This document shows, one piece after another, positions 15,873-38,586 of a stretch of 64,000 bases of DNA. The notes below the pieces were generated by a model. It searched no databases. It was not told where the DNA came from and saw only the letters and a list, made by a program, of their open reading frames with translations. Position 1 is the first letter of the stretch. The number at the start of each line of letters is the position of its first letter. Source of the DNA: an uncultured Barnesiella sp. (lineage in GTDB: Bacteria > Bacteroidota > Bacteroidia > Bacteroidales > Barnesiellaceae); contig CALUJQ010000009.1 of NCBI GenBank assembly GCA_944320995.1, positions 13,392-77,391 of the forward strand. Reading direction: 5' to 3'. The position numbers were made by a program, and so were the translations under genes.

Positions 15873-15873
15873 A

Positions 15874-16725: not shown

Positions 16726-16755
16726 AATATCTATACTTCTAATGTTTTCCAAACT

Positions 16756-20473: not shown

Positions 20474-20477
20474 ACGC

Positions 20478-21083
20478 CTACTCCCCGGCGGGGTCGCCAC
20501 AATCGCCCCGACACACGAGAATATAATACGACTCCTCGCTCTCACCGAACGATTTTACCGTCAATCCCGCCCGGACAAACTGCCCAACCTGCTCGGCCAC
20601 CGGAGGCAACGGTCTCGAAAAAACCCGGTTCGACAAACGGCGGTGTATCGCATTCAAGTGTGACCGCCCTTGTGCATGGGCAATCAACAACCGGCCTCCG
20701 CAATAAAGATTGTCGGTGACCAACTTGAAAATCGTCTCGACCGGATAACGGAAATGGGGGAAAACCGAATAGAGCAAAATGGCGTCGAAACGACCGGCCA
20801 ACCGCTCCCGCTCCACATCGGCTTTCAGAAAATGAACCCCTGCACCCGAATGACGCAGAGAGGCCACCCGCAGCATCTCTTCGGAACGATCTACCGCGAC
20901 AACAGGCACATAGGCCCCTACCCGCTCCCGGATAAACGGTATCATCACCCCGGTGCCCGTACCTACATCGAGGACCGTCTCTCCCGGTTTCAACTGTAAA
21001 ACCGCCAGCAACGCCGCCACTTTCGCCGCATCGCACCGACTCGTCTTATCCCACACACCGGCCACCTCGTCAAAAAAATTCAT
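20478..21083 (-). CDS. Class I SAM-dependent methyltransferase, translationally coupled to hypB
   Basis: VLDVGTGTG motif; its ATG overlaps the hypB stop (ATGA). Confidence 0.9.
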   Translation of the reverse strand: MNFFDEVAGVWDKTSRCDAAKVAALLAVLQLKPGETVLDVGTGTGVMIPFIRERVGAYVPVVAVDRSEEMLRVASLRHSGAGVHFLKADVERERLAGRFDAILLYSVFPHFRYPVETIFKLVTDNLYCGGRLLIAHAQGRSHLNAIHRRLSNRVFSRPLPPVAEQVGQFVRAGLTVKSFGESEESYYILVCRGDCGDPAGE

Positions 21084-21817
21084 CGTACCTCCTCGCCCCC
21101 AAAAAAGGACAATAAATAACCACACCATGCGTCTATCCCGGTACCTCGGGTCGAAGAGGTCTCGAAAAACCGCAGATGCCGGTTGACTTTCAAGGCATTC
21201 CCTTTCAACCGGGCAAGGTCGCTATCGACATAAGGGAGCAAATCGACCTTATTAATCACGCAAACATCGGCCCCGGCAAACATGTAGGGATACTTCAACG
21301 GTTTGTCGTCGCCCTCGGTCACACTCAACAGGACAACCCGCAGGCTCTCGCCCAAATCGAACATCGCGGGACAGACCAGATTACCCACATTCTCGATAAA
21401 CAACAGGCTATCTTTTACCTGCAACTCATCGAAAGCCGACGCCACCATGCGGGCATCGAGATGACAGCCGTTGTGCGTATTGATCTGCACGGCCGGGACT
21501 CCCGAGCGGCGAATGCGCGCAGCATCGTTCTCGGTTTGCTGGTCGCCCTCGATCACGGCAACGTGACGAAAGCCCATTTCGCCGAGCCGTCCGATCGTTC
21601 GCTCGAGCAGCGTGGTCTTACCCGAACCCGGCGAGCTAACCATATTGATGGCCACACACCCGGCCGCACCCCATCGGGTGCGATTTTGCCGGGCCACCCG
21701 GTTGTTCTCACTCAAAATATCCTGCTCTACGGTTATCTCATGCCCGTGGGCTATCCCCCGGCGGTGCATCTCTTCGTGGCTCATTTCATGGCTGCCACAA
21801 CCACATGTCGTACACAT
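21080..21817 (-). CDS. hypB: Hydrogenase nickel-incorporation GTPase
   Basis: MCTTCGC, His-rich stretch, SSPGSGKTT, EGDQ, GCHLDA, ENVGNLVCP, EGDDKPLKYP, INKVD. Confidence 0.96.
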   Translation of the reverse strand: MCTTCGCGSHEMSHEEMHRRGIAHGHEITVEQDILSENNRVARQNRTRWGAAGCVAINMVSSPGSGKTTLLERTIGRLGEMGFRHVAVIEGDQQTENDAARIRRSGVPAVQINTHNGCHLDARMVASAFDELQVKDSLLFIENVGNLVCPAMFDLGESLRVVLLSVTEGDDKPLKYPYMFAGADVCVINKVDLLPYVDSDLARLKGNALKVNRHLRFFETSSTRGTGIDAWCGYLLSFFGGEEVR

Positions 21818-21836
21818 TTTCTTTTTATTTTTAGGA

Positions 21837-22190
21837 TTATTCTTTCCCCTCCTCGACAATCAGCGACGAGAGGCGGAACTCTTGCCCCGATACCAACCGC
21901 GCGGCATAACTCCCGCACCGGGGACATGGCGTATATAACGATGCCGGCCTGAACGTCTCGCCGCAATCGTCACAACGGGCTGCCGGGTCCACCCGGTGGA
22001 TCTCGACCCGGACCCCGGCAAAAGGAGTCCTCTCCAACACCATTCGCAACGAATACGAAAAAGCGTCGTCGTCAATTCCCGACAAGCCGCCGACCGTCAT
22101 CTCGATGGCACACAGCCGGCCGCAGCCATGCCGCCGCATCTCCCGCTCGACCAACTCCACCACACTGCAAGCCAATGACAACTCGTGCAT
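21837..22190 (-). CDS. hypA: Hydrogenase nickel metallochaperone
   Basis: MHELS start; CDDC and CPRC zinc pairs. Confidence 0.96.
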   Translation of the reverse strand: MHELSLACSVVELVEREMRRHGCGRLCAIEMTVGGLSGIDDDAFSYSLRMVLERTPFAGVRVEIHRVDPAARCDDCGETFRPASLYTPCPRCGSYAARLVSGQEFRLSSLIVEEGKE

Positions 22191-22199
22191 CTCGACCCC

Positions 22200-24470
22200 C
22201 TATCTACACCCATTTATCCATGCCGACGCGACCGCCATCTGTCCCACGGCGATGGCGGCATCGTTGCAAGGGACAAGTGCCGGCAAATAGGGCTGCAAGC
22301 CCTGTTGCCTCAACATGGGCATGAGCATATCGACCAACAGCTTATTTTGCAACACGCCCCCGCACAAAACCACCCGGGAGAGCTTCTGCTCGGCAGCCTG
22401 CCTTGCCAACTCGGTACACCACATGGCGGCATAGGTGCGATGAAACGCCGCAGCAATTTCGGCCCGGGAAACCCCGTCGCGCAAATCGTTCAACACGGCA
22501 ATGACCAACCACGAATAATCGAGCGGATTGTCGAGGTCGTACGGATAGATTGTCGAGGTCGTACGGTCGGCAATCTGCTCCAACTTTTGGGGCGCTTCGG
22601 ATTGATACCGGTTGAAATCGGCCACCCCCAACAACGAGGCTACCGCATCGAAAAGCCGTCCGGCACCCGAACTCAACGGCGTATTGATGCGCCGGGCTAT
22701 CATGCGACATATCAACCGGATACGGTCATGCCCCACCCGTTCCACAAAATCGGGAGGCAAAGGCATCTGCTCGCCAAACAACGAATACAAAAGCGATATG
22801 GCCATGCGCCAAGGCTCCCGGGCTGCAATATCGCCTCCCGGCATGGGCAGATACGGGTGGTGCGACAAACGGCGATATTCGGAGCGGGAACAGCGAAGCA
22901 ACTCTCCGCCCCAAACCGTGCAGTCATCGCCATACCCGGTCCCGTCGAGACACAGCGCCAGCACTTCGCCCGTGAGTCCATATTCGGCCATGACCGCTAC
23001 GGCATGGGCGTGATGATGCTGCACCCGATAGACAGGGATATGCCGCTCTGCCGCATACCGTTCGCCCCAAACCGTAGCGGAATAATCGGGGTGCAGGTCG
23101 CAAACCACACAGCCGGCATCGAACCGGAACATGCGCGAAAAATGCGATACCGACTCCTCGAAAAACTTCAAGTTCTCCCGATGAGACAACTCCCCGATAT
23201 ACTGTCCCAACAAAATATCTTTCCTCTTCCCTATCGCAAAACTCGATACCTGCTCGGCCCCGACAGCCAATATCCCCTCGGTCGGCTGTAAATTGTGCAG
23301 CGGTTCGGGCGTATATCCACGGGCTCTCCGTACGGGACGGCACAAACCGTCATACTCGCAAACCACCGAATCATCGACCCGGTTGTATATCTCCCGGTTA
23401 TACGAAACGACCAGATCGACCTGCGCATCGAACAACTCGTGAGCCTCGCCATCGGCAATGACAATGGGGCGTCCGCCCCGGTTTCCGCTGGTTGCCACAA
23501 TACGCCTCAACCCCGGAGCGGCGGCAAACAAGTCGTAATGAATCGCCATATAGGGCAAAAGAACCCCCAACGACTTATATCCGTCGTTCAACCACGGAGT
23601 CCGCCCCCGCTTCTCCCGCAACAGGACAATGGGCCGCCGCCACGAAGTCAACGCCGCACGCTCCTCGTCCGAAAGCATCAAATCGTCGCCGACCGCCTGC
23701 TCGTCGCGATACATCACGGCCAAAGGTTTGGCATCACGCTCCTTCAACCGGCGCACCTTGCCTACCGCCGCTTCGCAATCGGCATCGCACAACAGATTGT
23801 ACCCGCCCAAACTCTTCAACGCAACGATACCACCTTGCGACAAAACCTCGGCAACCCGGGCAACGATACGCTCATAGGAACGCTCCTCCACCCCCTCGGC
23901 ATCGCGCATCGTATAGCATGGCCCGCAATCGTTGCAGGCAATGGGCTGGGCATGAAAACGCCGGTCCTGCACATCGGTGTACTCCTCCCGGCATTTATTG
24001 CACATCTCGAACGAGCCCATCGTAGTCACAGCCCGGTCATAAGGCAACTCCTTGATAATGGAAAAACGCGGCCCGCAATGGGTGCAGTTGATAAAAGGAT
24101 AATTCTTGCGATGGGCTTGACGCTTACGATCCTGCAAACACTCGGGACAAACGGCTATATCGGGACTTATGCGGGTAATATCGCCGCCGGCACTGCGACT
24201 GGGAGCAATCTCGAAGCGGGTGTATCTGTGCCCGTCGTCACACCGGGTCACCGCTATCCGTTCGACCGAAGCTACCGCCGGAGCCGACTCGGACAGGGCT
24301 TTCAAAAAACGCTCCTTTTGCCGGCCGGTGGCCTGCAATACCACCAACACCCCTTCATTGCTATTATCTACATATCCGCACAACCCCATGCCGGTCGCCA
24401 ACCGATAGACATAGGGACGAAAACCCACTCCTTGCACTAAACCGCCGATATGTATGTGATATTGATTCAT
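22200..24470 (-). CDS. hypF: Carbamoyltransferase
   Basis: GLVQGVGFRP, zinc fingers CPEC/CTHCGPR/CNKC/CNDCGP, HHHAH, DGTGYG, SSGAGRLFD, CNDAAIAVGQ. Confidence 0.97.
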   Translation of the reverse strand: MNQYHIHIGGLVQGVGFRPYVYRLATGMGLCGYVDNSNEGVLVVLQATGRQKERFLKALSESAPAVASVERIAVTRCDDGHRYTRFEIAPSRSAGGDITRISPDIAVCPECLQDRKRQAHRKNYPFINCTHCGPRFSIIKELPYDRAVTTMGSFEMCNKCREEYTDVQDRRFHAQPIACNDCGPCYTMRDAEGVEERSYERIVARVAEVLSQGGIVALKSLGGYNLLCDADCEAAVGKVRRLKERDAKPLAVMYRDEQAVGDDLMLSDEERAALTSWRRPIVLLREKRGRTPWLNDGYKSLGVLLPYMAIHYDLFAAAPGLRRIVATSGNRGGRPIVIADGEAHELFDAQVDLVVSYNREIYNRVDDSVVCEYDGLCRPVRRARGYTPEPLHNLQPTEGILAVGAEQVSSFAIGKRKDILLGQYIGELSHRENLKFFEESVSHFSRMFRFDAGCVVCDLHPDYSATVWGERYAAERHIPVYRVQHHHAHAVAVMAEYGLTGEVLALCLDGTGYGDDCTVWGGELLRCSRSEYRRLSHHPYLPMPGGDIAAREPWRMAISLLYSLFGEQMPLPPDFVERVGHDRIRLICRMIARRINTPLSSGAGRLFDAVASLLGVADFNRYQSEAPQKLEQIADRTTSTIYPYDLDNPLDYSWLVIAVLNDLRDGVSRAEIAAAFHRTYAAMWCTELARQAAEQKLSRVVLCGGVLQNKLLVDMLMPMLRQQGLQPYLPALVPCNDAAIAVGQMAVASAWINGCR

Positions 24471-24550
24471 CGATAAAAGTTTTTCAGATATGACGATTAA
24501 ACAATCTCCCCCAAAAAGTTGTTCACTACTTGTATTTAAACTCGTAAATC

Positions 24551-24799
24551 ATGTGCTTGGCCATTCCCGGAAAAATAATCGAAATCGACCGCTCGTCCTC
24601 CCTGTGCATGGCGACCGTCGATTTCGGAGGCGTATATAAACCCATTTGTATCCAGTATATCGAAGCCGACGCCGGCGATTATATTTTGGCCCATGCCGGC
24701 ATGGCCATAACCCGCCTCGATCCCCAAGAGGCCGAAGCGACATTGGAAGATTTCAAAATGCTCGCCGAACAACTTAATCCCAACGGTCATGTGGTATGA
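24551..24799 (+). CDS. hypC: Hydrogenase assembly chaperone
   Basis: MCLAIPG start; YILAHAGMAI. Confidence 0.96.
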   Translation: MCLAIPGKIIEIDRSSSLCMATVDFGGVYKPICIQYIEADAGDYILAHAGMAITRLDPQEAEATLEDFKMLAEQLNPNGHVV

Positions 24800-25877
24800 A
24801 CAGCCATTCCGAAAAAACGAGAACCTCACGACTCTGCTTCGTGCCATTCGGGAACTCGCTACTTTTCCCATCCGCATCATGGAGGTGTGCGGCGGACAGA
24901 CCTATGCCCTGTCGCGTTATCGCATCGAAGAGTTGCTCCCCGATACCATAGAGATGATTCACGGCCCGGGGTGTCCCGTGTGCGTCACCCCCGAAGAGAC
25001 TGTCGCCCGGGCAATCGAGATAGCCCGATTCCCCGGCACGGTACTCTGTACCTTCGGCGACATGATACGGGTTCCCTCGGACGAGGGGTGCAGCCTGCAA
25101 CAACTCAAAGCCGAAGGGAAGGATATACGCATACTCTATTCGCCTCTCGACTCTCTGAAAATAGCCCGGGAAAATCCCGGTAAAGAGGTTGTTTTCTTCG
25201 CCATAGGATTCGAAACCACTACACCGGTATATGCCTTGTTGCTACATGAAATCATCGACAAAAAAATAGACAACCTCACTCTGCTGACCTCGCTGTTTAC
25301 CATACCGGCTGCCGTCTCGTTTCTCGCGCAAGATCCCGAATGCCTCATAAACGGATTGCTTGCCGCCGGACATGTCTGCTCGATTACCGGGACGGAGACG
25401 TATGAACGATTGGCCCGGGAGTTGGAGATGCCTATCGCCATCACCGGATTCGAACCGGCCGACCTGTTATACGGCATCTACCGAGTCGTCCAATTGAAAA
25501 CACAAGGGAGAAACCTCACGGTAAATGCCTATCGAAGAGCCGTACCGGCACAAGGAAACCCCATCGCCCGATTGCAGACGGCCCGATATTTCACGCCCTA
25601 CGACGCCTGCTGGCGAGGCTTGGGCACGATTCCTGCCAGCGGATTGAAACTGCGCCCGCCGTATGAACAATATGACGCCCGAAATCGTTTTTGCAGTGAA
25701 GTAAAACCAGACATTCGACCCTCGGTATGCCGTGCCGGAGAAATCATGAAAGGGAAAATATCGCCCCTGAGATGCCCGCTATTTGGCAACCGTTGTACAC
25801 CCGACACCCCGTTAGGAGCATCTATGGTATCTTCCGAAGGGACCTGCGCTGCCTTTTACCGTTATAAAACGAACTAA
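24789..25877 (+). CDS. hypD: Hydrogenase formation protein
   Basis: MEVCGGQT, GPGCPVCV, GFETT, AGHV, MVSSEGTCAA. Confidence 0.96.
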   Translation: MWYEQPFRKNENLTTLLRAIRELATFPIRIMEVCGGQTYALSRYRIEELLPDTIEMIHGPGCPVCVTPEETVARAIEIARFPGTVLCTFGDMIRVPSDEGCSLQQLKAEGKDIRILYSPLDSLKIARENPGKEVVFFAIGFETTTPVYALLLHEIIDKKIDNLTLLTSLFTIPAAVSFLAQDPECLINGLLAAGHVCSITGTETYERLARELEMPIAITGFEPADLLYGIYRVVQLKTQGRNLTVNAYRRAVPAQGNPIARLQTARYFTPYDACWRGLGTIPASGLKLRPPYEQYDARNRFCSEVKPDIRPSVCRAGEIMKGKISPLRCPLFGNRCTPDTPLGASMVSSEGTCAAFYRYKTN

Positions 25878-25891
25878 AAAAACACCGGAAT

Positions 25892-26932
25892 ATGGAGTTA
25901 CCCAATTGTCCCATACCGACACAAAAATACGACCGCATAACGATGGCGCACGGCGGAGGCGGAAAAATGACCACCCGGCTAATCGAGAAAATATTCTATC
26001 CGGCCTTCTCCAACCGATGGCTCGAACAAGCCCACGACGGGGCCACACTGAACCTCCCCTCCTCACGAATCGCCTTTACGACCGACTCGTTTGTCGTGAA
26101 TCCCCTGTTTTTCCCCGGTGGGAACATTGGCGATTTGGCCGTAAACGGTACGGTCAACGACCTCTTGTGCTGCGGAGCTACACCGCTCTACCTCTCGGCC
26201 GGGTTCATCTTGGAAGAGGGACTGCCCATCGACACGCTCAAAAAAGTGGTACACTCCATGCAAACGGCGGCCGCCAAAGCCGGAGTATCCATTGTCACGG
26301 GCGACACCAAAGTGGTCGAGTTCGGGAAATGCGACAAGCTGTTTATCAACACGGCGGGAATCGGCATCATTCCCGAGAATATCGACATAGGGCTGCACCG
26401 TGTCGTAAAAGGCGATGCCGTCATCGTAACCGGCCCGATAGGCAACCATGGCGTTTCGATTCTCTCTACCCGCGAAAGTCTGGGTTTCGAAAGCTCCATT
26501 CAAAGCGACACGGCGGCCCTCACCCAAATTGTTGCGAAACTACTCTCCGGGATTCCCGACATTCACATCTTGCGCGATCCCACCCGGGGAGGGTTATCGA
26601 GTACCTTGAACGAAATCGCCACGGGAGCCCATGTGACTATCGTTATCGACGAAGCGGCATTGCCTATCGACCCACCGGTGAAAGCGGCCTGCGACCTGCT
26701 CGGATTGGACCCGCTATATGTGGCCAACGAAGGGCTCATGCTCATATTCCTCCCCAACGAATATGCCGAACAGGCCCTACGCATCATTCGCGGCGAACCT
26801 CACGGTGAAAATGCCCGGATAATAGGCCGCGTGACCGACGACAAACGAGCCGAGGTCATTCTGGAACTTGCTTTGGGACAAACACGCGTTATCGATATGT
26901 TGAGCGGAGAACAACTGCCGCGCATTTGTTGA
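25892..26932 (+). CDS. hypE: Carbamoyl dehydratase
   Basis: MAHGGGG, GDTKVV, RDPTRGG, VANEG; C-terminal GEQLPRIC. Confidence 0.97.
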   Translation: MELPNCPIPTQKYDRITMAHGGGGKMTTRLIEKIFYPAFSNRWLEQAHDGATLNLPSSRIAFTTDSFVVNPLFFPGGNIGDLAVNGTVNDLLCCGATPLYLSAGFILEEGLPIDTLKKVVHSMQTAAAKAGVSIVTGDTKVVEFGKCDKLFINTAGIGIIPENIDIGLHRVVKGDAVIVTGPIGNHGVSILSTRESLGFESSIQSDTAALTQIVAKLLSGIPDIHILRDPTRGGLSSTLNEIATGAHVTIVIDEAALPIDPPVKAACDLLGLDPLYVANEGLMLIFLPNEYAEQALRIIRGEPHGENARIIGRVTDDKRAEVILELALGQTRVIDMLSGEQLPRIC

Positions 26933-26951
26933 AACTACAAATCGAAAAACA

Positions 26952-28154
26952 ATGGAAAAAGAACAATCTTTCTATCAAGAACTGAAAGCGAAAGGTTATA
27001 CCCGTCGCCAGTTTCTCAAATTTTGCGGTATCATGGGGGCCATGCTGGGCTTGCAACAAACCGGTCTGGCCCAAGTGGTCAATGCCCTCCAAAGCAAACC
27101 TCGCAAACCGGTCCTCTGGTTTCACTTCCAAGAATGCACCTGTTGCAGCGAATCGTTCCTGCGATCGTCGCACCCGCTCGTCGGACAAATCCTGCTCGAA
27201 ATGATTTCGCTCGACTACTCCGACACGCTCATGGCCGCCAGCGGTTTTCAGGCCGAAGAGGTACGCTACCGCTCCATGAAAGAAAATTGGGGCAAATACA
27301 TCATGGTCGTCGAAGGCTCCGTGCCATTGGGAAATCCCGGATACTGCACCATCGCCGGGCACTCGGCCAAACAGATATTCGACGAAGCCGCCCAAGGGGC
27401 AAGCGCCATCATCGCATGGGGAAACTGTGCCTCATCGGGGTGCGTACAAAGCGCATATCCCAACCCTACCGATACGAAACCCGTGCATAAAATTATTTCG
27501 GGGAAACCTGTTATCAACGTGCAGGGATGCCCGCCCATTGCCGATGTCATGGCGGGAGTCATCACCTATATCCTCACCTTCGACCGGTTGCCCGAACTCG
27601 ATGCCATGGGACGCCCCGTCGCATTTTACGGTCGCCGCATACACGACACCTGCTACCGCCGCCCGGCCTACGATGCCGGACTGTTTGTCGAAGCCTTCGA
27701 CGACGAAAACGCCAAGAAGGGATATTGCCTGTACAAAATGGGTTGCAAGGGCCCCAACACGTTCAACTCCTGCGCCGTTATGAAGTGGAACGAAGGTGTG
27801 AGCTATCCCATACAATCGGGGCACGGCTGTATAGGTTGTGCCGAACCGGGATTCTGGGACGCCGAGCCACTGTATCATCACCTTCCCCACGTGAGAGGAT
27901 TCGGCATCGAGGCCACAGCCGACCAAATAGGATTGGGATTGACAGCCGTTGCCGCAACCGGAGTTGCCGCCCACGCCGTCGTAACCAACATTCAAAAGCG
28001 AAAACTTATCAAAAACCAAATGGATGGCGACGAACTCAATCAAGAGTCTTTTGCCGCAGAAGAGCAACATATCGAACAGGAAGAAAAAGCTCTCGCCCAA
28101 AAGGCCCGTGAACTGGAAAACGAAAAAAGAACCGATAAAACCATTGAATCATGA
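26952..28154 (+). CDS. hyaA: [NiFe]-hydrogenase small subunit (group 1d-like, Tat-exported, C-terminal membrane anchor)
   Basis: Tat signal TRRQFLK; ECTCCSES; WGNCASSGCVQ; GCPP; HDTCYRR; CLYKMGCKGP; YPIQSGHGCIGC; hydrophobic C-terminal helix. Confidence 0.95.
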   Translation: MEKEQSFYQELKAKGYTRRQFLKFCGIMGAMLGLQQTGLAQVVNALQSKPRKPVLWFHFQECTCCSESFLRSSHPLVGQILLEMISLDYSDTLMAASGFQAEEVRYRSMKENWGKYIMVVEGSVPLGNPGYCTIAGHSAKQIFDEAAQGASAIIAWGNCASSGCVQSAYPNPTDTKPVHKIISGKPVINVQGCPPIADVMAGVITYILTFDRLPELDAMGRPVAFYGRRIHDTCYRRPAYDAGLFVEAFDDENAKKGYCLYKMGCKGPNTFNSCAVMKWNEGVSYPIQSGHGCIGCAEPGFWDAEPLYHHLPHVRGFGIEATADQIGLGLTAVAATGVAAHAVVTNIQKRKLIKNQMDGDELNQESFAAEEQHIEQEEKALAQKARELENEKRTDKTIES

Positions 28155-29869
28155 GCAAGCGAATTGTTGTTGACCCTATTACGAGAATCGAAGGACACCT
28201 GCGTATGGAGGCCGATATAGAGAATGGCGTTATTACCGATGCGTTCAGTACCGGGACCATGATACGCGGAATCGAAATCATTGTCAAAGACCGCGATCCC
28301 CGGGACGTTTGGGCTTATGTGGGAAGGGTATGCGGAGTCTGCACCTCCATACATTCGCTCTGTTCGGTCCGGGCTGTCGAGGATGCGTTCGGCATCGTCA
28401 TTCCTCCCAATGCCGAACAGGTGAGAAACCTCATGCAATCGGCCGTCACCATACAAGACCATGTGACCCATTTCTACCAATTGCAAGCGCTCGACTGGGT
28501 CGATGTCATGTCGGCATTGAAAGCCGACCCCCGAAAAGCGGCCGAAGTAGCTCAAAGCATATCGGAATGGCCCAAAAATTCGATCGGATACTTCGCCGAG
28601 ACACAGAAAAAAGTACGACAATTTATCGAAACCAGCAAATTCAGCATCTTCTCGAACGGATATTGGGGACACCCGGCTTACAAACTTCCGCCGGAAGTCA
28701 ACCTCGTAGCCTTGGCCCACTATCTCGAAGCGCTCGAAGTACAAAAAGAGATTGTCAAGGTGCAAACCATTTTCGGCGGGAAAAACCCCCACCCCAATTT
28801 TCTGGTAGGCGGCATGGCTTGCGCCGTCAACATCAACGACCCGAATGCCCTCAATAACGAAAGGCTCAACTTCGTCGCCCAAATCATCGAACGCACACAA
28901 ACTTTCGTCCGCCAAGTCTATCTCCCCGACGTGCTGGCCATACTCTCCTATTACCCCGACTGGACAAAAATAGGCGGAGGATTACGCAATTACATCGCCT
29001 ATGGCGATTATCCCATGGGCAGCTATGGAGAGCTATCGACCTACAAAAGCCCGCGAGGCATCGTGGTCGATAGAGACCTGTCGAAAGTCGTCGAGTTCGA
29101 CCCTTGGGCGATGGACGGATTGCAGGAATTTGTCAACAACTCGTGGTACTCCTATTCGCAAGGGAAAGACGCCGGCCTGCACCCATCGGTCGGAGAGACC
29201 CGGCTGGACTACACGGGCGCAACACCTCCCTACGAATATCTCGACCGCGACCAGCCTTACAGTTGGATCAAGACTCCCCGTTACAAAGGCATGCCCATGG
29301 AAACCGGGCCGTTGGCCCGCAACATCGTAGCTCATGCCTCGGGCGACGAAACTTATCGAGAAATCACACAACGATGCCTCAAACAGTTGAACGTCCCTTA
29401 CGAAGCCATGTACTCTACCGCCGGACGCACATTGGCCCGGGCTATCGAGGCAAACTTGCTGGCCGACTGGCAAACCGACTTTTACACCACGCTGTTGCAA
29501 AATATAAAAAACGGCGATTACCGCATGTTCAACGGGACAAAATGGGAACCCTCCACTTGGCCCCAAACGGCCCGTGGCGTAGGGCTCACCGAAGCTCCGC
29601 GGGGGGCATTGGCCCACTATGTCAACATCGAGGGCAAAAAAGTATCGAATTACCAAATGGTCGTCCCCACCACATGGAACGCCTCGCCCCGCGACACCCG
29701 GGGACAGCACTCGGCTTTCGAAGCCTCCCTCATCGGGACTCCGGTCATCGACCCTCAAATACCACTCGAAATCATTCGCACAATACACTCTTTCGACCCC
29801 TGTATGGCTTGTGCCGTACACTTGTATGACGAGAACGGCGAACATATCCATCGCTGTGAGATGTTCTAA
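28151..29869 (+). CDS. hyaB: [NiFe]-hydrogenase large subunit
   Basis: DPITRIEGH, L1 RVCGVC, GGKNPHPN, EAPRGAL, L2 DPCMACAVH plus a 15-aa cleavable tail. Confidence 0.97.
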   Translation: MSKRIVVDPITRIEGHLRMEADIENGVITDAFSTGTMIRGIEIIVKDRDPRDVWAYVGRVCGVCTSIHSLCSVRAVEDAFGIVIPPNAEQVRNLMQSAVTIQDHVTHFYQLQALDWVDVMSALKADPRKAAEVAQSISEWPKNSIGYFAETQKKVRQFIETSKFSIFSNGYWGHPAYKLPPEVNLVALAHYLEALEVQKEIVKVQTIFGGKNPHPNFLVGGMACAVNINDPNALNNERLNFVAQIIERTQTFVRQVYLPDVLAILSYYPDWTKIGGGLRNYIAYGDYPMGSYGELSTYKSPRGIVVDRDLSKVVEFDPWAMDGLQEFVNNSWYSYSQGKDAGLHPSVGETRLDYTGATPPYEYLDRDQPYSWIKTPRYKGMPMETGPLARNIVAHASGDETYREITQRCLKQLNVPYEAMYSTAGRTLARAIEANLLADWQTDFYTTLLQNIKNGDYRMFNGTKWEPSTWPQTARGVGLTEAPRGALAHYVNIEGKKVSNYQMVVPTTWNASPRDTRGQHSAFEASLIGTPVIDPQIPLEIIRTIHSFDPCMACAVHLYDENGEHIHRCEMF

Positions 29870-29895
29870 AAAACAAATCCTAAAAATTACTCGAC

Positions 29896-30657
29896 ATGAT
29901 AAGCCGGAAAAAATCCTTGCGAGAAGTCTATGTATGGGAATTGCCCGTACGCATATTTCATTGGGCCAATGCCACGGCCATTGTCGTCTTGTGTGTAACC
30001 GGGTATATTATCGGCAACCCTCCCGCCATATTGATTTCCACTCCACCCGATGCCAACTATTGGTTCGGGTGGATACGGTTTATCCATTTTGCAGCCGCCT
30101 TCGTCTTCATTCTCAACTTCTTGGTGCGATTGTATTGGGCTTTTGCCGGAAACTCATTCGCCCATTGGAGCAACTACCTGCCCCTCACGAAAAGACAGTG
30201 GCGAGGTATTTTCGACACCACCAAAGTCGATGTGCTGCTACTGTCGCCCAAACCCGTTTACGACATCGGACACAACAGTTTGGCCGCCTTTACCTACTTC
30301 GGTGTCTTCATTCTGTTTATCGTCCAAACCCTCACAGGCATGGCCATGTATTGCGTCTCGACCAACAACTTTATGGAACCCTTTTTTACATGGCTTCTCT
30401 TTGAATGCGGAGGTTTTTTTGTCGTGCGACAGATACACCACATTGCCATGTGGGCTTTTATCCTTTTCACGATCGCACACATCTATCTCGTGTTTTACCA
30501 CGACTATATCGAACGCAACGGCATAGCCTCCTCGATTATCGGAGGGTGGAAATTCGTCCGGGAAGACTTGGCCGAAGAATATGAAACCGAACAGAAGCAG
30601 CAACAACAAATCCAAAAACAAAAAGATGAAATCTCAAACAGAGCAAAAGAAAAATAA
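29896..30657 (+). CDS. hyaC: Ni/Fe-hydrogenase b-type cytochrome subunit
   Basis: VYVWELPVRIFHW, RFIHF, GHNSLA, RQIHH, AHIY; four hydrophobic segments. Confidence 0.94.
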   Translation: MISRKKSLREVYVWELPVRIFHWANATAIVVLCVTGYIIGNPPAILISTPPDANYWFGWIRFIHFAAAFVFILNFLVRLYWAFAGNSFAHWSNYLPLTKRQWRGIFDTTKVDVLLLSPKPVYDIGHNSLAAFTYFGVFILFIVQTLTGMAMYCVSTNNFMEPFFTWLLFECGGFFVVRQIHHIAMWAFILFTIAHIYLVFYHDYIERNGIASSIIGGWKFVREDLAEEYETEQKQQQQIQKQKDEISNRAKEK

Positions 30658-31156
30658 CAAACCTTTTACCCCACCCGACAAAATCCTCATTTTGGGAGTC
30701 GGCAACCTCATACTCAACGATGAGGGTATCGGGATACACATAATCAACAGGCTCAGTTCCATGAAACTACCTCCCAACATCGACATTCTCGACGGAGGGA
30801 CCGGTGGGTTGGCATTGCTGGAAACCCTCCAAAGCTATCCCCACCTTATCCTTATCGACGCCACTCTCGACAACAATCCGGCAGGCACAATCCGCCGGCT
30901 GTCGCCCAAATACTCCAAAGATTACCCCCCTCTTTTGAGCGCTCATGAAATAGGATTGAAAGAGATGATCGATGCCATGTTATTACTCGGGGAAGCACCC
31001 CAAATCGAGTTGATTGCCGTCAGTGTGCGCAACTGCCGGAGTTTGGGCATGCAACTCTCTCCCGAAGTCAGCAAGGCTATCCCACAAATCGTACAGCTCA
31101 TTCTCGAGATCATCGACGAACTGCAATACGGCAACCGCCCGACCGAAATCATATAA
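30626..31156 (+). CDS. hyaD: Hydrogenase maturation endopeptidase
   Basis: LGVGNLILNDEGIG, DGGTGG, LIDA, SAHEIG; start set at MKSQTEQ. Confidence 0.93.
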   Translation: MKSQTEQKKNNKPFTPPDKILILGVGNLILNDEGIGIHIINRLSSMKLPPNIDILDGGTGGLALLETLQSYPHLILIDATLDNNPAGTIRRLSPKYSKDYPPLLSAHEIGLKEMIDAMLLLGEAPQIELIAVSVRNCRSLGMQLSPEVSKAIPQIVQLILEIIDELQYGNRPTEII

Positions 31157-31322
31157 ATCCCATATCCAACCGCACACCCAAACAACCGCACACAACTTGC
31201 CGGCAAACCCCGCACCCCGGGAAACACCTCTTCACGACTAAAAAGAATGACATTTTTGAATCGCCGATAGAAAAATTTTATGTAACTTGGCCCATCATTC
31301 AAAAATAGCCAATTCTTTATTC

Positions 31323-32168
31323 ATGAAAACAAAAAATTTATTCCTGCTCCTTTTCTGTCTATTCGTATTCTCGTCCCTGCACGCTCAAAACGAACCGGTC
31401 AAAATACTGGCAATCGGCAACAGTTTCGCCGACGACGGCATCGAATACCTCGACGAAGTAGCCATCGCTGCCGGGAAACGCATTATCGTTGCCAACACCT
31501 ACATCGGAGGCTGCTCGCTGGCACAACATGTCGATAACGCCCGACACGATAACCATAACTACCTTTATCGCAAAAACACCGAAGGGAAATATACCGAGGA
31601 GAACGGGAAAAGCCTACTGGAAGCTATCAAAGACGAAAACTGGGACTACATCGTATTCCAGCAAGTGAGTTCGTCGGCCGGCCAATACAGCAGCTACTTC
31701 CCCGAGCTGACCGAGTTGATGGAATATGTACGGGAAAACGCCACCAATCCGAATGTACAATATGCCCTGCAACAAACATGGGCCTATGCCCAGAACTCCA
31801 CTCACCCGGGATTTTTCAGATACGGCAAAAACCAGCAAGCCATGTATGAGGATGTCGTATTTTCCTATGACCAAGCGGCAAAAAAACAAAACATATCGAT
31901 CATCATACCTACCGGAACCGCTATACAAAACGCCCGCAGCAGCAGTTTGGGCGACACCCTTTGCCGCGATGGATACCACTTGGATCTGAAATATGGTCGC
32001 TACACGGCAGCCTGCACGTGGTTCGAAACATTTTTCGGCGAATCGGCCGTAGGCATCGCTTATCGCCCCGAAGGAGTATCCGACCAACAGGCCGCCATTG
32101 CACAACACGCCGCCCACAGGGCCATACTATGCCCCTCCTCGGTAACCGATATGAGCGACTTCAAATAG
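31323..32168 (+). CDS. Secreted SGNH-hydrolase-like protein (DUF4886-type)
   Basis: Signal peptide; ILAIGNSF, YIGGCSL, WDYIVFQQ, QTWAY, RDGYHL. Confidence 0.82.
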   Translation: MKTKNLFLLLFCLFVFSSLHAQNEPVKILAIGNSFADDGIEYLDEVAIAAGKRIIVANTYIGGCSLAQHVDNARHDNHNYLYRKNTEGKYTEENGKSLLEAIKDENWDYIVFQQVSSSAGQYSSYFPELTELMEYVRENATNPNVQYALQQTWAYAQNSTHPGFFRYGKNQQAMYEDVVFSYDQAAKKQNISIIIPTGTAIQNARSSSLGDTLCRDGYHLDLKYGRYTAACTWFETFFGESAVGIAYRPEGVSDQQAAIAQHAAHRAILCPSSVTDMSDFK

Positions 32169-32387
32169 GAATTGATGATATACCCGACGCAACCATAAAT
32201 GGTCCTGTCCCGATTCTCGGGATAAAAAAACAACCTTCACCCCCCTATGCAAAGGCCACCGGGGCTATTCTACCCAAACATTCAGTAAAAATGGTAAACA
32301 TATCGGTAATCGATATACTTGCCGTGACTGGGGAACGCTATAATTTTGTAACCGACAAAGCAAATAGCAACCTTCAAAACATTCCCC

Positions 32388-32888
32388 ATGAACAAACTGA
32401 TAGCCATTACCATTTGCATAGCGGCCTCGATAGGAGGCGGACAACTCTTACATGCACAAGATATGAATACCGAAAAAGAGAACATCAGCCCATTCCCGGT
32501 AGGCGAAAAAAATCCTCCGGTAAACGCCCAATATTTTATCGGGCAATCTTATCTCGCTCCCCTCACCCAGAACAAGGCACTGAACTGCCCCGTCTATAAC
32601 GTAACCTTCGAGCCGGCTTGCCGTAACAACTGGCACAGCCACACCGGCGGACAGATACTTATCGCCGTGGGCGGAAAAGGCTTTTATCAAGAAAAAGGGA
32701 AACCTGCCCGGCTACTTCAACCGGGCGACGTTGTAGAAATTGCCCCCGACGTAATCCATTGGCACGGAGCCGCACCCGACAGTTGGTTCTCGCACCTTGC
32801 CATCGAATGCAACCCGCAAACCAACAAAAACTCATGGTACGAGCCTGTCGATGACGAGCAATACACCCTCGCCACTCAACAGAAATAA
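32388..32888 (+). CDS. Exported cupin-domain protein
   Basis: Signal-like N-terminus; FEPACRNNWHSHTGGQIL and HWHGA..WFSHLAIE cupin motifs. Confidence 0.87.
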   Translation: MNKLIAITICIAASIGGGQLLHAQDMNTEKENISPFPVGEKNPPVNAQYFIGQSYLAPLTQNKALNCPVYNVTFEPACRNNWHSHTGGQILIAVGGKGFYQEKGKPARLLQPGDVVEIAPDVIHWHGAAPDSWFSHLAIECNPQTNKNSWYEPVDDEQYTLATQQK

Positions 32889-33084: not shown

Positions 33085-33969
33085 ATGGGAAGCAACTATT
33101 TCAAATCCCACTATCTTACGACTACCGAAAACGACAAGAAGTGGGGAATTATATGTACAACCGTAGGAATGCAAATCATAGACCCCCACGGAAAATATCC
33201 TATCGGGTCTCACCCCAACAATTATCAATCGGTAAAAAGGGGGCGTATCCTCGATGAATACCAACTTATCTACATAACCCGGGGTGAGGGGTACTTCGAA
33301 TCTACAAACTGCAAACGCACCAAGGTAAAAGCCGGGAATATCCTTTTCTTATTCCCCGGCGAATGGCACTGTTATGCCCCCGACGCCAATACGGGATGGT
33401 CGGAGTATTGGGTAGGATTCAAAGGTCCCAATATAGACAGGCGTGTGCAGTATGGATTCTTCTCTCCCGACCAGCCGATTCTAAATATAGGGTATAGCGT
33501 AGGTATCGAAAATTGTTACCAAGAGATGATCCGGGAAACCGAGCAGGAAAAAACCGGATTCCAAATTCTGGTTTCAAGTATCGTTCTGCACATTCTGGGA
33601 TATGTCATTTACAAGCACAACAACAAATTGTACGAAAGCAACCCCATCGTCGAGAAAATCAATTACGCCCGGAAAATCATGAGAGAACATGTAAACCAGC
33701 CGCTCTCTCCCGAAACAATCGCCACCGACTTGAACCTCAGTTATACATGGTTTCGCCGAGCATTCAAAGAATATACCGGCATCTCGCCGGCCCAATATCA
33801 ACTACAAATGAGGCTCAACCGCGCAAAAGAGCTATTGACCAATTCCAATCTAAACATCTCGGAAATCGCTTACGAACTGGGATTTGAGAGTGTCAGCCAC
33901 TTTTGCACCTTTTTCAAATCGAGAGAGAAATTCACAGCCTCGGAATATCGCGAAAAATTCAAACTTTAA
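33085..33969 (+). CDS. AraC family regulator, likely rhamnose activator (RhaR-like)
   Basis: Cupin-like N-terminus (GRILDEYQLIYIT, FPGEWH) and C-terminal double HTH; adjacent to the rha genes. Confidence 0.88.
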   Translation: MGSNYFKSHYLTTTENDKKWGIICTTVGMQIIDPHGKYPIGSHPNNYQSVKRGRILDEYQLIYITRGEGYFESTNCKRTKVKAGNILFLFPGEWHCYAPDANTGWSEYWVGFKGPNIDRRVQYGFFSPDQPILNIGYSVGIENCYQEMIRETEQEKTGFQILVSSIVLHILGYVIYKHNNKLYESNPIVEKINYARKIMREHVNQPLSPETIATDLNLSYTWFRRAFKEYTGISPAQYQLQMRLNRAKELLTNSNLNISEIAYELGFESVSHFCTFFKSREKFTASEYREKFKL

Positions 33970-34012
33970 AAACGATTACCCTCTCGGTCTATACATACCA
34001 GTCATCAAATTA

Positions 34013-34043
34013 CAGGGCTGAACCCTTACGGGATTCAGCCCTG
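34013..34043. terminator. Hairpin between convergent araC and fucO
   Basis: CAGGGCTGAA-11 nt-TTCAGCCCTG perfect 10-bp stem. Confidence 0.7.
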
Positions 34044-34075
34044 CATGAATTTAAGCGATATTCAGGTAAGCTCTA

Positions 34076-35230
34076 TCATTCAAATGCCGACTCATAGAGA
34101 GCCAAAATATCCGACAAGCTGACCTCCCGAGGATTTCCGGGGGTACAAACATCGGCCAAAGCAGCTTTGGCAAGAGCAGGCAACGAGGCTTTATCGACAC
34201 CCAGCACCGACAATTTTTGCGGAATATTCACCTCGATAGCGAGTTTACGCACCGCATCGACAGCGGCTTGTGCCTTTTCCTTCAAAGAGAGGTTCTGCAC
34301 ATCTACACCCATGGCAACGGCAATGTCGGCATATTTTTCCAACGACGATTCCATATTGAACTGCATGACGTAGGGCAACAAGAGTGCATTGGCCACACCA
34401 TGAGGTATATCAAACATGGCACCCAACGGGTGGGCCATACCGTGTACCAGCCCCAACCCGACATTGGAGAATCCCATACCTGCCACATATTGTGCCAAAG
34501 CCATTTTCTCGCGAGCCTCCATATCGGAGCCATCGGCCACAGCCTTCGGCAAATATTTTGCAATCATTCTTATCGCTTCTATATGGAACATGTCGGTCAA
34601 CTCCCATGCTCCCAAGGTTATATATCCCTCAATCGCATGAGTAAGTGCGTCCATACCCGTTGCGGCGGTCAAGCCCTTCGGCATCGACGACATCAACTCG
34701 GCATCGACAATGGCCAGTACCGGAATATCTTTGGGATCGACACAGACCATCTTTTTGGCATTGCGCTCATCGGTAATCACATAGTTGATAGTCACCTCTG
34801 CCGCAGTTCCTGCGGTAGTGGGCAATGCAATAATCGGCAAACTTTTCTGAGTCGTATCGGCTACACCTTCCAAAGAAACGACATCTGAGAAATCGGGGTT
34901 CTTCGATATGATTCCAATAGCCTTTGCCGTATCTATGGCCGACCCTCCACCCAAAGCGACAATGACATCGGCGCCACACTCTTTCAACACGGCCAATCCG
35001 TCCTGAACATTGGTAACTGTGGGATTTTGCTTTATCTCTGTAAACAACCGATATTGAATATCGGCCTTCTCCAACAGCGACGTGATCCGTTCTACAACGC
35101 CAAACCGAACCAGATCTTTGTCCGAAACCAACAAAACCGAGGTGTACCCTCTCCGTTTAATCTCTTCGGGCAAGACGGCTCTGGCTCCGGCCCCGAAATA
35201 GGACATTTCATTTAATACGATTCTTTTCAT
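34076..35230 (-). CDS. fucO: Lactaldehyde reductase (1,2-propanediol oxidoreductase)
   Basis: GGGSAID, PTTAGTAAEVT, DALTHAIE, HGMAH, DVCTPGNPR; own -7 box TAAATTTG at 35313-35306. Confidence 0.94.
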   Translation of the reverse strand: MKRIVLNEMSYFGAGARAVLPEEIKRRGYTSVLLVSDKDLVRFGVVERITSLLEKADIQYRLFTEIKQNPTVTNVQDGLAVLKECGADVIVALGGGSAIDTAKAIGIISKNPDFSDVVSLEGVADTTQKSLPIIALPTTAGTAAEVTINYVITDERNAKKMVCVDPKDIPVLAIVDAELMSSMPKGLTAATGMDALTHAIEGYITLGAWELTDMFHIEAIRMIAKYLPKAVADGSDMEAREKMALAQYVAGMGFSNVGLGLVHGMAHPLGAMFDIPHGVANALLLPYVMQFNMESSLEKYADIAVAMGVDVQNLSLKEKAQAAVDAVRKLAIEVNIPQKLSVLGVDKASLPALAKAALADVCTPGNPREVSLSDILALYESAFE

Positions 35231-35488
35231 ACTTTTTTATTTGGGCAGTTATATACCACTCCTATTGTATCGGATTGTATATAACTGCTATTGTGAGTAA
35301 TGACACAAATTTAATATATATTTTTAATACTATACCAATCTTTCTGCCCTTTTATCGTCGGCCCTAACAGAGTGTTTCATCTACATAAGACTCGACTTTC
35401 ATGAATCGATAATCAACAAAAGATACATCACTCGTGCAGAAAAAAAGTATCAAAGGATAAAACTCACATGTATCAACGGCCTTTGTTT

Positions 35489-36280: not shown

Positions 36281-36292
36281 CTTTGATAAATA

Positions 36293-37321: not shown

Positions 37322-37325
37322 GCAC

Positions 37326-38579: not shown

Positions 38580-38586
38580 AATCGTT

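What the first reader, a model, noticed from the sequence alone, without database searches (positions are those of the whole stretch)
26952..30657. O2-tolerant-type respiratory [NiFe]-hydrogenase in a gut Bacteroidales
Seen: the small subunit has both supernumerary cysteines (ECTCCSES = Cys19; CASSGCVQ = Cys120) and the medial-cluster Pro (YPIQSGHGC), with a Tat signal, TM anchor and cytochrome b; the large subunit keeps NPHPN (His229). Established: these define the [4Fe-3S] proximal cluster of O2-tolerant group 1d enzymes such as E. coli Hyd-1. Most gut Bacteroidales are regarded as H2 producers using [FeFe] enzymes. This locus suggests H2 oxidation into the quinone pool, possibly at the microoxic mucosa.
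Basis: partly seen in the sequence, partly recalled or inferred. Interest (0 to 1): 0.72.

Follow-up and report, generated by a model that had tools for sequence, protein, structure and literature searches.

The report
Six-cysteine uptake hydrogenase operon in Barnesiella
A gut Barnesiella carries a complete operon for a membrane-bound, hydrogen-oxidising [NiFe] enzyme with the six-cysteine cluster of oxygen-tolerant types; this was already known for its relatives, and it lacks a second tolerance residue.

Summary
Window 26952-30657 encodes a Tat-exported small subunit, a large subunit and a cytochrome b of a group 1 [NiFe]-hydrogenase. They sit in a ten-gene locus, hypBAF / hypCDE-hyaABCD, at 21080-31156.

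By alignment to solved structures the small subunit has Cys19 and Cys120. It also has Glu76, which tracks the six-cysteine (6C) signature in the sequences compared.

The medial-cluster Pro242 and large-subunit His229 also occur in O2-sensitive enzymes.

The large-subunit residue that does discriminate is position 73: Glu in tolerant enzymes, Gln in sensitive ones. Here it is Gly, and Gly or Ala in 115 of the 120 closest homologues. E73A variants of Hyd-1 and Hyd-5 are more O2-sensitive.

The locus also lacks the HyaE/HyaF/HoxR-type helper genes and the large-subunit insertions of classic group 1d enzymes.

A concatenated tree places it inside the 6C clade (100% bootstrap), but in a Bacteroidales-Calditrichota branch separate from every characterised enzyme.

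The host is Barnesiella. Parabacteroides distasonis has the same gene layout. Published work already reports 6C enzymes in the Cytophaga-Flavobacterium-Bacteroides (CFB) group (2015) and group 1d in Parabacteroides (2025-26).

Verdict: a real, ordinary new member of a known kind. Full O2 tolerance is not established.

The parts
21080..21817 (-). hypB, nickel-inserting GTPase. The start was chosen at the ATG after the hypA stop; the longest ORF runs to 21859.
   Evidence: Pfam cobW/HypB/UreG. Same position as the annotated hypB in P. distasonis. N-terminus MCTTCGC read.
21837..22190 (-). hypA, nickel metallochaperone
   Evidence: Best NCBIfam match TIGR00100, E 3.7e-21, 75 bits, which is below the 88-bit curated cutoff. 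Synteny with the annotated hypA of P. distasonis.
22200..24470 (-). hypF, carbamoyltransferase
   Evidence: TIGR00143, 669 bits against a cutoff of 466.
24471..24550 (.). 80-bp divergent intergenic region between hypF and hypC; presumed promoter region for both transcription units
   Evidence: Sequence read. The sigma-70-type scan gave no more sites than shuffled sequence, and it does not cover Bacteroidales promoters. The promoter role is inferred only.
24551..24799 (+). hypC, chaperone
   Evidence: TIGR00074, 66.7 bits against a cutoff of 48.
24789..25877 (+). hypD
   Evidence: TIGR00075, 420 bits.
25892..26932 (+). hypE
   Evidence: TIGR02124, 459 bits.
26952..28154 (+). [NiFe]-hydrogenase small subunit (HyaA/HoxK-like). 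Tat signal aa 1-45, three Fe-S clusters, C-terminal membrane anchor and a 54-aa charged tail.
   Evidence: TIGR00391, 481 bits. 3RGW_S E 1.2e-127 and 3UQY_S E 1.1e-124. All Fe-S ligands conserved.
27132..27155 (+). ECTCCSES, holding Cys17, Cys19 and Cys20. Cys19 is the first supernumerary cysteine.
   Evidence: 4C relatives have CTGC.
27306..27326 (+). VVEGSVP, holding Glu76. This residue is Glu in all 6C sequences tabulated and Asp in most 4C ones (Glu in three 4C groups).
27426..27449 (+). CASSGCVQ, holding Cys115 and Cys120. Cys120 is the second supernumerary cysteine. Residue 118 is Ser where classic group 1d has Trp.
27930..27989 (+). C-terminal transmembrane anchor of the small subunit
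   Evidence: Kyte-Doolittle segment at aa 326-345, aligned to the Hyd-1 and ReMBH anchor.
28151..29869 (+). [NiFe]-hydrogenase large subunit. Ni-Fe ligands Cys76, Cys79, Cys576 and Cys579 are present. A 15-aa C-terminal extension follows His557 (His582 in Hyd-1 numbering).
   Evidence: 3MYR_B E 3.5e-220, 4C3O_A E 1.4e-204, 3UQY_L E 3.2e-190. Residue table.
28319..28348 (+). VGRVCGVCTS. Gly at position 73 (Glu in O2-tolerant enzymes, Gln in sensitive ones) and Ser at position 81 (Gly in classic group 1d).
   Evidence: Role of residue 73 from PMC3940037 and PMC5040170.
28784..28798 (+). NPHPN, with H214 corresponding to His229. Conserved but not diagnostic.
   Evidence: the same motif is in O2-sensitive 3MYR_B. 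Present in 120 of 120 homologues. PMC3940037.
29896..30657 (+). b-type cytochrome membrane subunit (HyaC/HoxZ-like), the quinone-reducing module
   Evidence: TIGR02125, 165 bits against a cutoff of 121.5. Four hydrophobic segments and five invariant His.
30626..31156 (+). HyaD/HybD-type maturation endopeptidase. It overlaps the end of the cytochrome b gene.
   Evidence: TIGR00072, 124 bits. The gene is called at the equivalent position in identical metagenome contigs.

Best explanation
The locus encodes a complete, periplasm-facing, membrane-bound uptake [NiFe]-hydrogenase of the six-cysteine (6C) lineage in a gut Barnesiella.

Mechanism:
- The Tat system exports the folded small-large dimer.
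- H2 is split at the Ni-Fe site.
- Electrons pass through a proximal cluster predicted to be [4Fe-3S] (Cys17, 19, 20, 115, 120, 149, plus Glu76), then a medial [3Fe-4S] and a distal [4Fe-4S] cluster.
- They reach a four-helix cytochrome b, which reduces menaquinone. This builds a proton gradient by a redox loop.

In this anaerobe the main acceptor is most likely fumarate, or another anaerobic quinol oxidase. O2 through cytochrome bd would be at most a minor sink.

The 6C cluster probably lets the enzyme survive transient O2 and reactivate quickly. Three features argue for weaker tolerance than E. coli Hyd-1 or the C. necator enzyme: the large subunit has Gly rather than Glu at position 73, the operon lacks the HyaE/HyaF/HoxR helper genes, and the lineage is separate from all characterised enzymes.

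Shown here: gene content, motifs, phylogeny, synteny.
Inferred: direction of catalysis, the quinone and acceptor used, and the degree of O2 tolerance.
For: - All ten genes were assigned by NCBIfam or Pfam (hypA's best match falls below its curated cutoff), with tight spacing or overlaps.
- The small subunit matches 3RGW_S and 3UQY_S at E about 1e-125, with Cys19 and Cys120 aligned. Every Fe-S ligand and Glu76 is present.
- The Ni-Fe cysteines and Glu28, Asp118, Arg509, Asp574 and His582 are present.
- Cytochrome b has five invariant His and four hydrophobic segments.
- The 6C motif is present in 119-120 of the 120 closest homologues.
- In the concatenated small-plus-large-subunit neighbour-joining tree, 6C monophyly has 100% bootstrap, Bacteroidales plus Calditrichota 100%, classic group 1d 100%, and the alternative grouping with group 1e 0%.
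- P. distasonis has the same hypBAF / hypCDE-small-large-cybH-hyaD layout. That orthologue is labelled group 1d and reported as transcribed in the human gut (PMC12578642). It is predicted to respire fumarate with H2 (bioRxiv 10.64898/2026.06.24.733704).
- Gut and faecal metatranscriptome assemblies hold contigs at 99% identity or more that lie over the hyp and hya genes.
- For attenuated tolerance: Gly73; the E73A phenotype in Hyd-1 and Hyd-5; no HyaE, HyaF, HoxR, HoxT, HoxL or HoxV in the window or in 15 related non-proteobacterial loci, although all are found beside the Sutterellaceae loci.
Against: - There is no biochemical or physiological data for any member of this Bacteroidota branch.
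- No fumarate reductase, cytochrome bd or menaquinone genes were found among the ORFs scanned in the 64-kb window, so the acceptor is inferred from general knowledge of Bacteroidales.
- The large subunit alone joins the group 1d clade with only 52% bootstrap, and its best solved relative is a group 1e enzyme.
- The trees are neighbour-joining only.
- E73Q Hyd-1 keeps full tolerance, so the loss of Glu73 need not reduce tolerance if Ser81 or a water molecule restores the hydrogen-bond network.
- The RNA evidence comes from assembled contigs at low depth, similar to neighbouring genes, and DNA carry-over cannot be excluded.
Confidence: 0.8

Rival explanations
1. One reading: a truly O2-tolerant group 1d enzyme, equivalent to E. 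coli Hyd-1. It would let the bacterium oxidise H2 while O2 is present and pass the electrons to O2 through cytochrome bd at the microoxic mucosa.
For: - The complete 6C signature plus Glu76.
- 6C clade membership.
- Removing these cysteines is reported to impair tolerance in the C. necator enzyme (PMC10583674, abstract seen).
- Group 1d genes are enriched 2.6-fold in biopsies over stool, although the authors attribute this to Enterobacteriaceae.
Against: - Gly instead of Glu73. E73A variants of Hyd-1 and Hyd-5 are more O2-sensitive.
- No HyaE, HyaF or HoxR-type genes.
- The host genus is an anaerobe (own knowledge, not tested here).
- The same 6C signature occurs in Syntrophomonas, which I take to be a strict anaerobe. 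If so, 6C does not by itself indicate aerobic H2 use.
- No cydAB was found among the ORFs scanned in the window.
Confidence: 0.15
2. The six cysteines are an inherited lineage trait with no bearing on O2. The enzyme would behave as a standard O2-sensitive anaerobic uptake hydrogenase, functionally like group 1b, 1c or 1e enzymes.
For: [quoted passage not shown]
- The large subunit resembles group 1e in its indels and scores best against 3MYR_B.
- Gly73.
Against: Cys19, Cys120 and Glu76 are kept in essentially all of the 120 closest homologues across wide divergence, down to about 64% identity. This points to purifying selection on the special cluster. A 6C cluster has so far always been found as [4Fe-3S] in solved structures (own knowledge).
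Confidence: 0.2
3. The enzyme works mainly in reverse, or in both directions. It would vent excess reductant from the quinone pool as H2, or recycle H2 made by the cell's own [FeFe]-hydrogenase.
For: - E73Q doubles H2 production by Hyd-1, so changes at residue 73 can shift the catalytic bias.
- P. distasonis is classed as 'H2 flexible'.
- Hyd-1-type enzymes recycle fermentative H2 in Salmonella (Zbell and Maier 2009, seen only as a reference-list entry).
Against: - Producing H2 from menaquinol is strongly uphill (established thermodynamics).
- Every characterised 6C enzyme is biased toward H2 oxidation.
- E73A showed native-like catalysis.
- H2 recycling is itself uptake, so that part is not a real rival.
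Confidence: 0.07

Closest known systems
E. coli hydrogenase-1 (HyaABC) and Salmonella Hyd-5: group 1d, O2-tolerant, solved structures 3UQY, 4GD3, 4C3O
   Same: - Tat-exported small subunit with Cys19, Cys120 and Glu76, and all other Fe-S ligands.
- C-terminal membrane anchor, large subunit, cytochrome b and HyaD protease in the same order.
- Same 6C clade.
- Identity to Hyd-1: 52% (small subunit) and 50% (large subunit).
   Different: - Large-subunit residue 73 is Gly rather than Glu, and residue 81 is Ser rather than Gly.
- Small-subunit residue 118 is Ser rather than Trp.
- The large subunit has no N-terminal extension and lacks four short insertions.
- No hyaE or hyaF.
- hypCDE is fused upstream in the same operon.
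Cupriavidus necator membrane-bound hydrogenase (HoxKGZ): group 1d, 3RGW
   Same: It is the best solved match for the small subunit (E 1.2e-127). It has the same 6C ligands and a cytochrome b partner.
   Different: The C. necator operon carries HoxL, O, Q, R, T and V, needed for maturation in air (own knowledge). None is present here. Large-subunit identity is 49%. The host is an aerobe.
Parabacteroides distasonis hydrogenase locus (NZ_OY725764.1), labelled group 1d in gut surveys
   Same: Identical ten-gene layout, the 6C signature, Gly73 and no accessory genes. Identity is 62% (small subunit) and 61% (large subunit). Same Bacteroidales branch at 100% bootstrap.
   Different: It belongs to a different family (Tannerellaceae rather than Barnesiellaceae). 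It lacks the long charged C-terminal tails on the small subunit and cytochrome b. It is also uncharacterised: its H2 metabolism 'remains to be investigated'.
Allochromatium vinosum HydSL (3MYR): group 1e, Isp-type, standard O2-sensitive
   Same: It is the best solved match for the large subunit (736 bits, 56% identity). It has the same length and indel pattern, and the same NPHPN motif.
   Different: Its small subunit is 4C (CTGC and GG) with Asp76. Its large-subunit residue 73 is Gln. It pairs with Isp1/Isp2 rather than a cytochrome b (own knowledge). A grouping of this branch with group 1e had 0% bootstrap support.

Membership tests
Group 1 membrane-bound respiratory uptake [NiFe]-hydrogenase | Large subunit with the four Ni-Fe cysteine ligands (CxxC near each end), plus a C-terminal extension removed by a dedicated endopeptidase | tested here: met
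   Cys76, Cys79, Cys576, Cys579 and His582 are present, followed by a 15-aa tail. A HyaD-type protease gene lies at 30626-31156.
Group 1 membrane-bound respiratory uptake [NiFe]-hydrogenase | Small subunit with a twin-arginine signal and ligands for three Fe-S clusters | tested here: met
   RRQFLK at aa 18-23. All proximal, medial and distal ligands are conserved.
Group 1 membrane-bound respiratory uptake [NiFe]-hydrogenase | Membrane-integral b-type cytochrome encoded next to the structural genes | tested here: met
   TIGR02125 above its cutoff. Four hydrophobic segments and five invariant His.
Group 1 membrane-bound respiratory uptake [NiFe]-hydrogenase | H2 oxidation coupled to quinone reduction in vivo | not testable with these tools
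   This needs H2-uptake and mutant assays.
6C / group 1d 'O2-tolerant' [NiFe]-hydrogenase | Supernumerary Cys19 and Cys120 around the proximal cluster | tested here: met
   C64 and C164 align to Cys19 and Cys120 of 3RGW_S and Hyd-1. They are kept in 119-120 of 120 homologues.
6C / group 1d 'O2-tolerant' [NiFe]-hydrogenase | Small-subunit Glu76 next to Cys20 | tested here: met
   E121 corresponds to Glu76. It is Glu in all 6C sequences tabulated, and Asp in the group 1e and Hyd-2 references.
6C / group 1d 'O2-tolerant' [NiFe]-hydrogenase | Large-subunit Glu73 (Gln in O2-sensitive enzymes) | tested here: not met
   It is Gly58 here. Among the 120 closest homologues it is G in 102, A in 13, E in 3, S in 1 and L in 1. 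The role of the residue comes from PMC3940037 and PMC5040170.
6C / group 1d 'O2-tolerant' [NiFe]-hydrogenase | Large-subunit His229 pointing at the proximal cluster | tested here: met
   H214 is present, but the residue is invariant in all [NiFe]-hydrogenases, so it does not discriminate.
6C / group 1d 'O2-tolerant' [NiFe]-hydrogenase | Phylogenetic placement within the group 1d clade (HydDB classifies on the large subunit) | tested here: inconclusive
   6C monophyly has 100% bootstrap for the small subunit alone and for the concatenated subunits, but only 52% for the large subunit alone. The branch is separate from all characterised group 1d enzymes. HydDB itself could not be run. The Parabacteroides orthologue is published as group 1d.
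6C / group 1d 'O2-tolerant' [NiFe]-hydrogenase | Dedicated accessory genes (HyaE/HoxO, HyaF/HoxQ, HoxR rubredoxin, HoxT, HoxL, HoxV) beside the structural genes | tested here: not met
   tblastn found all of them beside the Sutterellaceae loci L014 and L015. It found none in the 64-kb window or in the 15 other non-proteobacterial loci searched, which include L001-L009, L040 and others. They could still lie elsewhere in the genome.
6C / group 1d 'O2-tolerant' [NiFe]-hydrogenase | Sustained H2 oxidation in O2, with only the rapidly reactivated Ni-B state formed | not testable with these tools
   This needs protein film electrochemistry and spectroscopy.
Group 1e (Isp-type) [NiFe]-hydrogenase | Four-cysteine proximal cluster and Isp1/Isp2 partners in place of cytochrome b | tested here: not met
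   The enzyme here is 6C, and a cytochrome b gene follows the large subunit. A grouping with group 1e had 0% bootstrap support. Only the large subunit's indel pattern resembles group 1e.

The most novel reading that the evidence does not exclude
The Bacteroidota (and other FCB-group) 6C hydrogenases may form a distinct functional subclass. Its features would be a [4Fe-3S]-type proximal cluster kept under selection in anaerobes, paired with a natural Glu73-to-Gly/Ala large subunit (with Ser81), and no O2-specific maturation factors. If its O2 response or catalytic bias differs measurably from Hyd-1 and ReMBH, two things would follow. The six-cysteine cluster would not be a sufficient marker of O2 tolerance. 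And sequence-based group 1d calls in gut metagenomes would overstate aerobic H2-oxidising potential.
Probability: 0.3. Interest if true: 0.5.

Novelty: new member of a known kind. Interest (0 to 1): 0.3.

Why it matters
Respiratory H2 consumers other than methanogens, acetogens and sulfate reducers are an acknowledged gap in gut H2 budgets. Bacteroidales that carry this operon (Barnesiella, Coprobacter, Parabacteroides) are plausible H2-to-fumarate respirers, and they are common.

The finding itself repeats what surveys already report. The useful addition from this check is a caution. The 'O2-tolerant' label rests on the small subunit alone. This whole branch lacks the large-subunit Glu73 and the aerobic maturation helpers. 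Its O2 behaviour should therefore be measured, not assumed, before 'group 1d' counts in metagenomes are read as aerobic or mucosal H2 oxidation.

Tried and rejected
- Group 1e membership. I considered this because the large subunit's best solved match is A. vinosum 3MYR_B. I rejected it because the small subunit is 6C, a cytochrome b is present, and the grouping had 0% bootstrap support in the concatenated tree. The high score is explained by shared absence of the classic group 1d insertions.
- Recent horizontal transfer of the locus, suggested by GC of 52-58% against about 47% just downstream. This was not pursued as an explanation. The layout is identical in P. distasonis, and the tree follows Bacteroidales taxonomy.
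- Promoter and terminator scan of 20000-32500. The number of sites did not exceed shuffled sequence, and the scan does not cover Bacteroidales promoters, so it was uninformative.
- Search for cydAB, frd or other respiratory genes in the window. None was found among the ORFs scanned (nearly all of those of 200 aa or more).
- Wolf et al. 2016 (Gut Microbes) and Pandelia et al. 2012 could not be read, as neither is held.
- Expression. Only assembled metatranscriptome contigs were available. They show presence at low depth but allow no quantification.
- Structure prediction was not run. Sequence matches to solved structures at E of 1e-125 to 1e-220 make it unnecessary, and model coordinates would not be available for measuring distances.

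Full report
**Anatomy of the locus**

ORF listing and NCBIfam and Pfam scans show a compact ten-gene hydrogenase locus.
- On the minus strand: hypB (21080-21817), hypA (21837-22190) and hypF (22200-24470).
- Across an 80-bp gap, on the plus strand: hypC (24551-24799), hypD (24789-25877), hypE (25892-26932), the small subunit (26952-28154), the large subunit (28151-29869), a b-type cytochrome (29896-30657) and a HyaD-type endopeptidase (30626-31156).
- The plus-strand genes overlap or lie 14-26 bp apart, so they probably form one transcription unit. That is an inference.

**Checking the observation**

Alignment to the solved C. necator small subunit (3RGW_S, E 1.2e-127) and to E. coli Hyd-1 (3UQY_S, E 1.1e-124) gives these correspondences:
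- C62, C64 and C65 of ECTCCSES are Cys17, Cys19 and Cys20.
- C159 and C164 of CASSGCVQ are Cys115 and Cys120.

The other features are also present. These are the Tat motif RRQFLK at aa 18-23, a mature N-terminus aligned with those of Hyd-1 and ReMBH, a C-terminal hydrophobic anchor at about aa 326-346, and Pro242. In the large subunit, H214 of NPHPN aligns to His229 of Salmonella Hyd-5.

It is not a chance pattern. 119 of the 120 closest small-subunit homologues have CTCCSES and all 120 have Cys120. Four-cysteine relatives have Gly at both positions. These include A. vinosum, Alteromonas, the Gallionellaceae loci, Hyd-2 and Sulfurovum.

**Which markers actually discriminate**

- Pro242 is present in all 13 sequences tabulated at that position, 4C ones included.
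[quoted passage not shown] The O2-sensitive A. vinosum large subunit has the same NPHPN motif.

A third small-subunit residue does track the 6C state. Glu76 is Glu in all 6C sequences tabulated and in the window. It is Asp in the group 1e references and Hyd-2, although three other 4C groups also have Glu.

In the large subunit, the discriminating residue described in the literature is position 73. It is Glu in most O2-tolerant enzymes and Gln in sensitive ones (PMC3940037, PMC5040170).
- The window has Gly there (VGRVCGVCTS).
- All Bacteroidales loci have Gly or Ala.
- Calditrichota, Anaeromyxobacteraceae, Sutterellaceae, Hyd-1, ReMBH and HupL have Glu.
- Syntrophomonas, the group 1e enzymes and Hyd-2 have Gln.
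- Among the 120 closest large-subunit homologues the counts are G 102, A 13, E 3, S 1 and L 1.

E73A variants of both Hyd-5 and Hyd-1 show native-like catalysis but increased O2 sensitivity. The inhibition is largely reversible. [quoted passage not shown] Glycine cannot do that through a side chain.

Position 81 is Ser in this branch. In classic group 1d it is Gly, and its backbone amide is the hydrogen-bond partner of Glu73 in Hyd-5. Ser81 might compensate for the missing Glu, but that is speculation.

**Classification**

The small subunit is closest to group 1d structures. The large subunit scores highest against the group 1e A. vinosum enzyme: 736 bits, against 684 for Hyd-5 and 637 for Hyd-1.

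The alignment explains this. The window's large subunit lacks the N-terminal extension and four short insertions shared by Hyd-1, ReMBH, HupL and the Sutterellaceae enzymes. In these it resembles group 1e.

Neighbour-joining trees with bootstrap were built from 36 related loci plus references for groups 1b to 1e:

| Grouping | Small subunit | Large subunit | Concatenated (200 replicates) |
|---|---|---|---|
| 6C monophyly | 100% | 52% | 100% |
| Bacteroidales + Calditrichota branch | 93% | 88% | 100% |
| Classic group 1d | 100% | 98% | 100% |
| This branch grouped with group 1e | not tested | not tested | 0% |

The enzyme therefore belongs to the 6C lineage, but to a deep branch that contains no characterised enzyme. 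HydDB could not be run. The Parabacteroides orthologue is published as group 1d (PMC12578642).

**Accessory genes**

tblastn searches used E. coli HyaE and HyaF and C. necator HoxL, HoxO, HoxQ, HoxR, HoxT and HoxV as queries. All of them were found next to the Sutterellaceae group 1d loci. None was found in the 64-kb window or in any Bacteroidales, Calditrichota, Anaeromyxobacteraceae or Syntrophomonas locus.

In C. necator these factors support maturation in air (own knowledge). Their absence fits an enzyme that is assembled anaerobically.

**Host and distribution**

The closest genomes are Barnesiella metagenome-assembled genomes, several of them from chicken gut. Their large subunits are 89-94% identical. 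The small-subunit protein occurs unchanged in gut metagenome assemblies with the same flanking genes. A Coprobacter large subunit is 82% identical and was seen on 147 contigs. P. distasonis has the same ten-gene layout at about 61% identity. More distant relatives carry names from Bacteroidales, Tannerellaceae, Chlorobi and Calditrichota.

Gut and faecal metatranscriptome assemblies contain contigs at 99% identity or more over the hyp and hya genes. Their depth is low and similar to that of neighbouring genes. This is weak evidence of transcription.

**Mechanism**

The most likely function is periplasmic H2 oxidation. Electrons would pass through the three clusters to a dihaem-type cytochrome b and on to menaquinone, conserving energy by a redox loop. 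For a Bacteroidales, fumarate reductase is the expected main sink. This rests on general knowledge of the order and on the 2026 genome-scale prediction for P. distasonis.

No fumarate reductase or cytochrome bd genes were found among the ORFs scanned in the window, nearly all of those of 200 aa or more. The acceptor therefore remains inferred.

The 6C cluster is under clear purifying selection in this branch. It probably gives protection and fast reactivation after transient O2. Gly73 and the minimal operon argue against equating the enzyme with Hyd-1 or ReMBH.

**Novelty**

- Welsh et al. 2025 list Parabacteroides (group 1d) among the encoders and transcribers of respiratory hydrogenases in the human gut, and say its H2 metabolism 'remains to be investigated'.
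- A 2026 preprint predicts H2-dependent fumarate and nitrite respiration for P. distasonis.

The Gly73 and no-helper distinction is a modest new caution, not a discovery. Interest is 0.3.

Noticed in passing
window 43289-45991 (-): An Eco57I/N6-type DNA methylase and an AccI-family restriction endonuclease lie in a 35-39% GC island, against about 50% for the window as a whole. This is probably a horizontally acquired restriction-modification system.
   Followed up: partly
window 33085-40083: A rhamnose-utilisation cluster lies about 2 kb downstream of the hydrogenase operon, after two small genes. It holds an AraC-type regulator, an Fe-alcohol dehydrogenase (FucO-like), a class II aldolase, RhaT, RhaA and a 498-aa ORF that is probably the kinase.
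   Followed up: partly
window 27990-28151 and 30562-30654: The Barnesiella small subunit (aa 347-400) and cytochrome b (aa 223-253) both end in long cytoplasmic tails rich in Glu, Lys and Gln. P. distasonis, E. coli and C. necator lack these tails. Their function is unknown.
   Followed up: no
window 28319-28348: Large-subunit residue 81 is Ser where classic group 1d has Gly. The backbone amide of Gly81 is the hydrogen-bond partner of Glu73 in Hyd-5. The Bacteroidales branch thus pairs Gly73 with Ser81, against Glu73 with Gly81.
   Followed up: partly
window 12392-16752 (-): A histidine biosynthesis gene run: hisB-like IGPD/HAD fusion, hisC, hisD and hisG.
   Followed up: no
window 31287-32168 (+): A DUF4886 protein lies directly after the hydrogenase operon, and at the same place in identical metagenome contigs. 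No link to the hydrogenase is evident.
   Followed up: no
window 3640-4824 (+) and 54940-56421 (-): Two long ORFs (394 and 493 aa) have no Pfam match. The second overlaps two plus-strand ORFs and may be spurious.
   Followed up: no
L012 (Syntrophomonas MAG), 1458-4950: This locus encodes a 6C small subunit (CTCC and Cys120) with Gln73 in the large subunit and no accessory genes. It is another 6C enzyme in what I take to be a strict anaerobe, with the 'sensitive-type' residue at position 73.
   Followed up: partly
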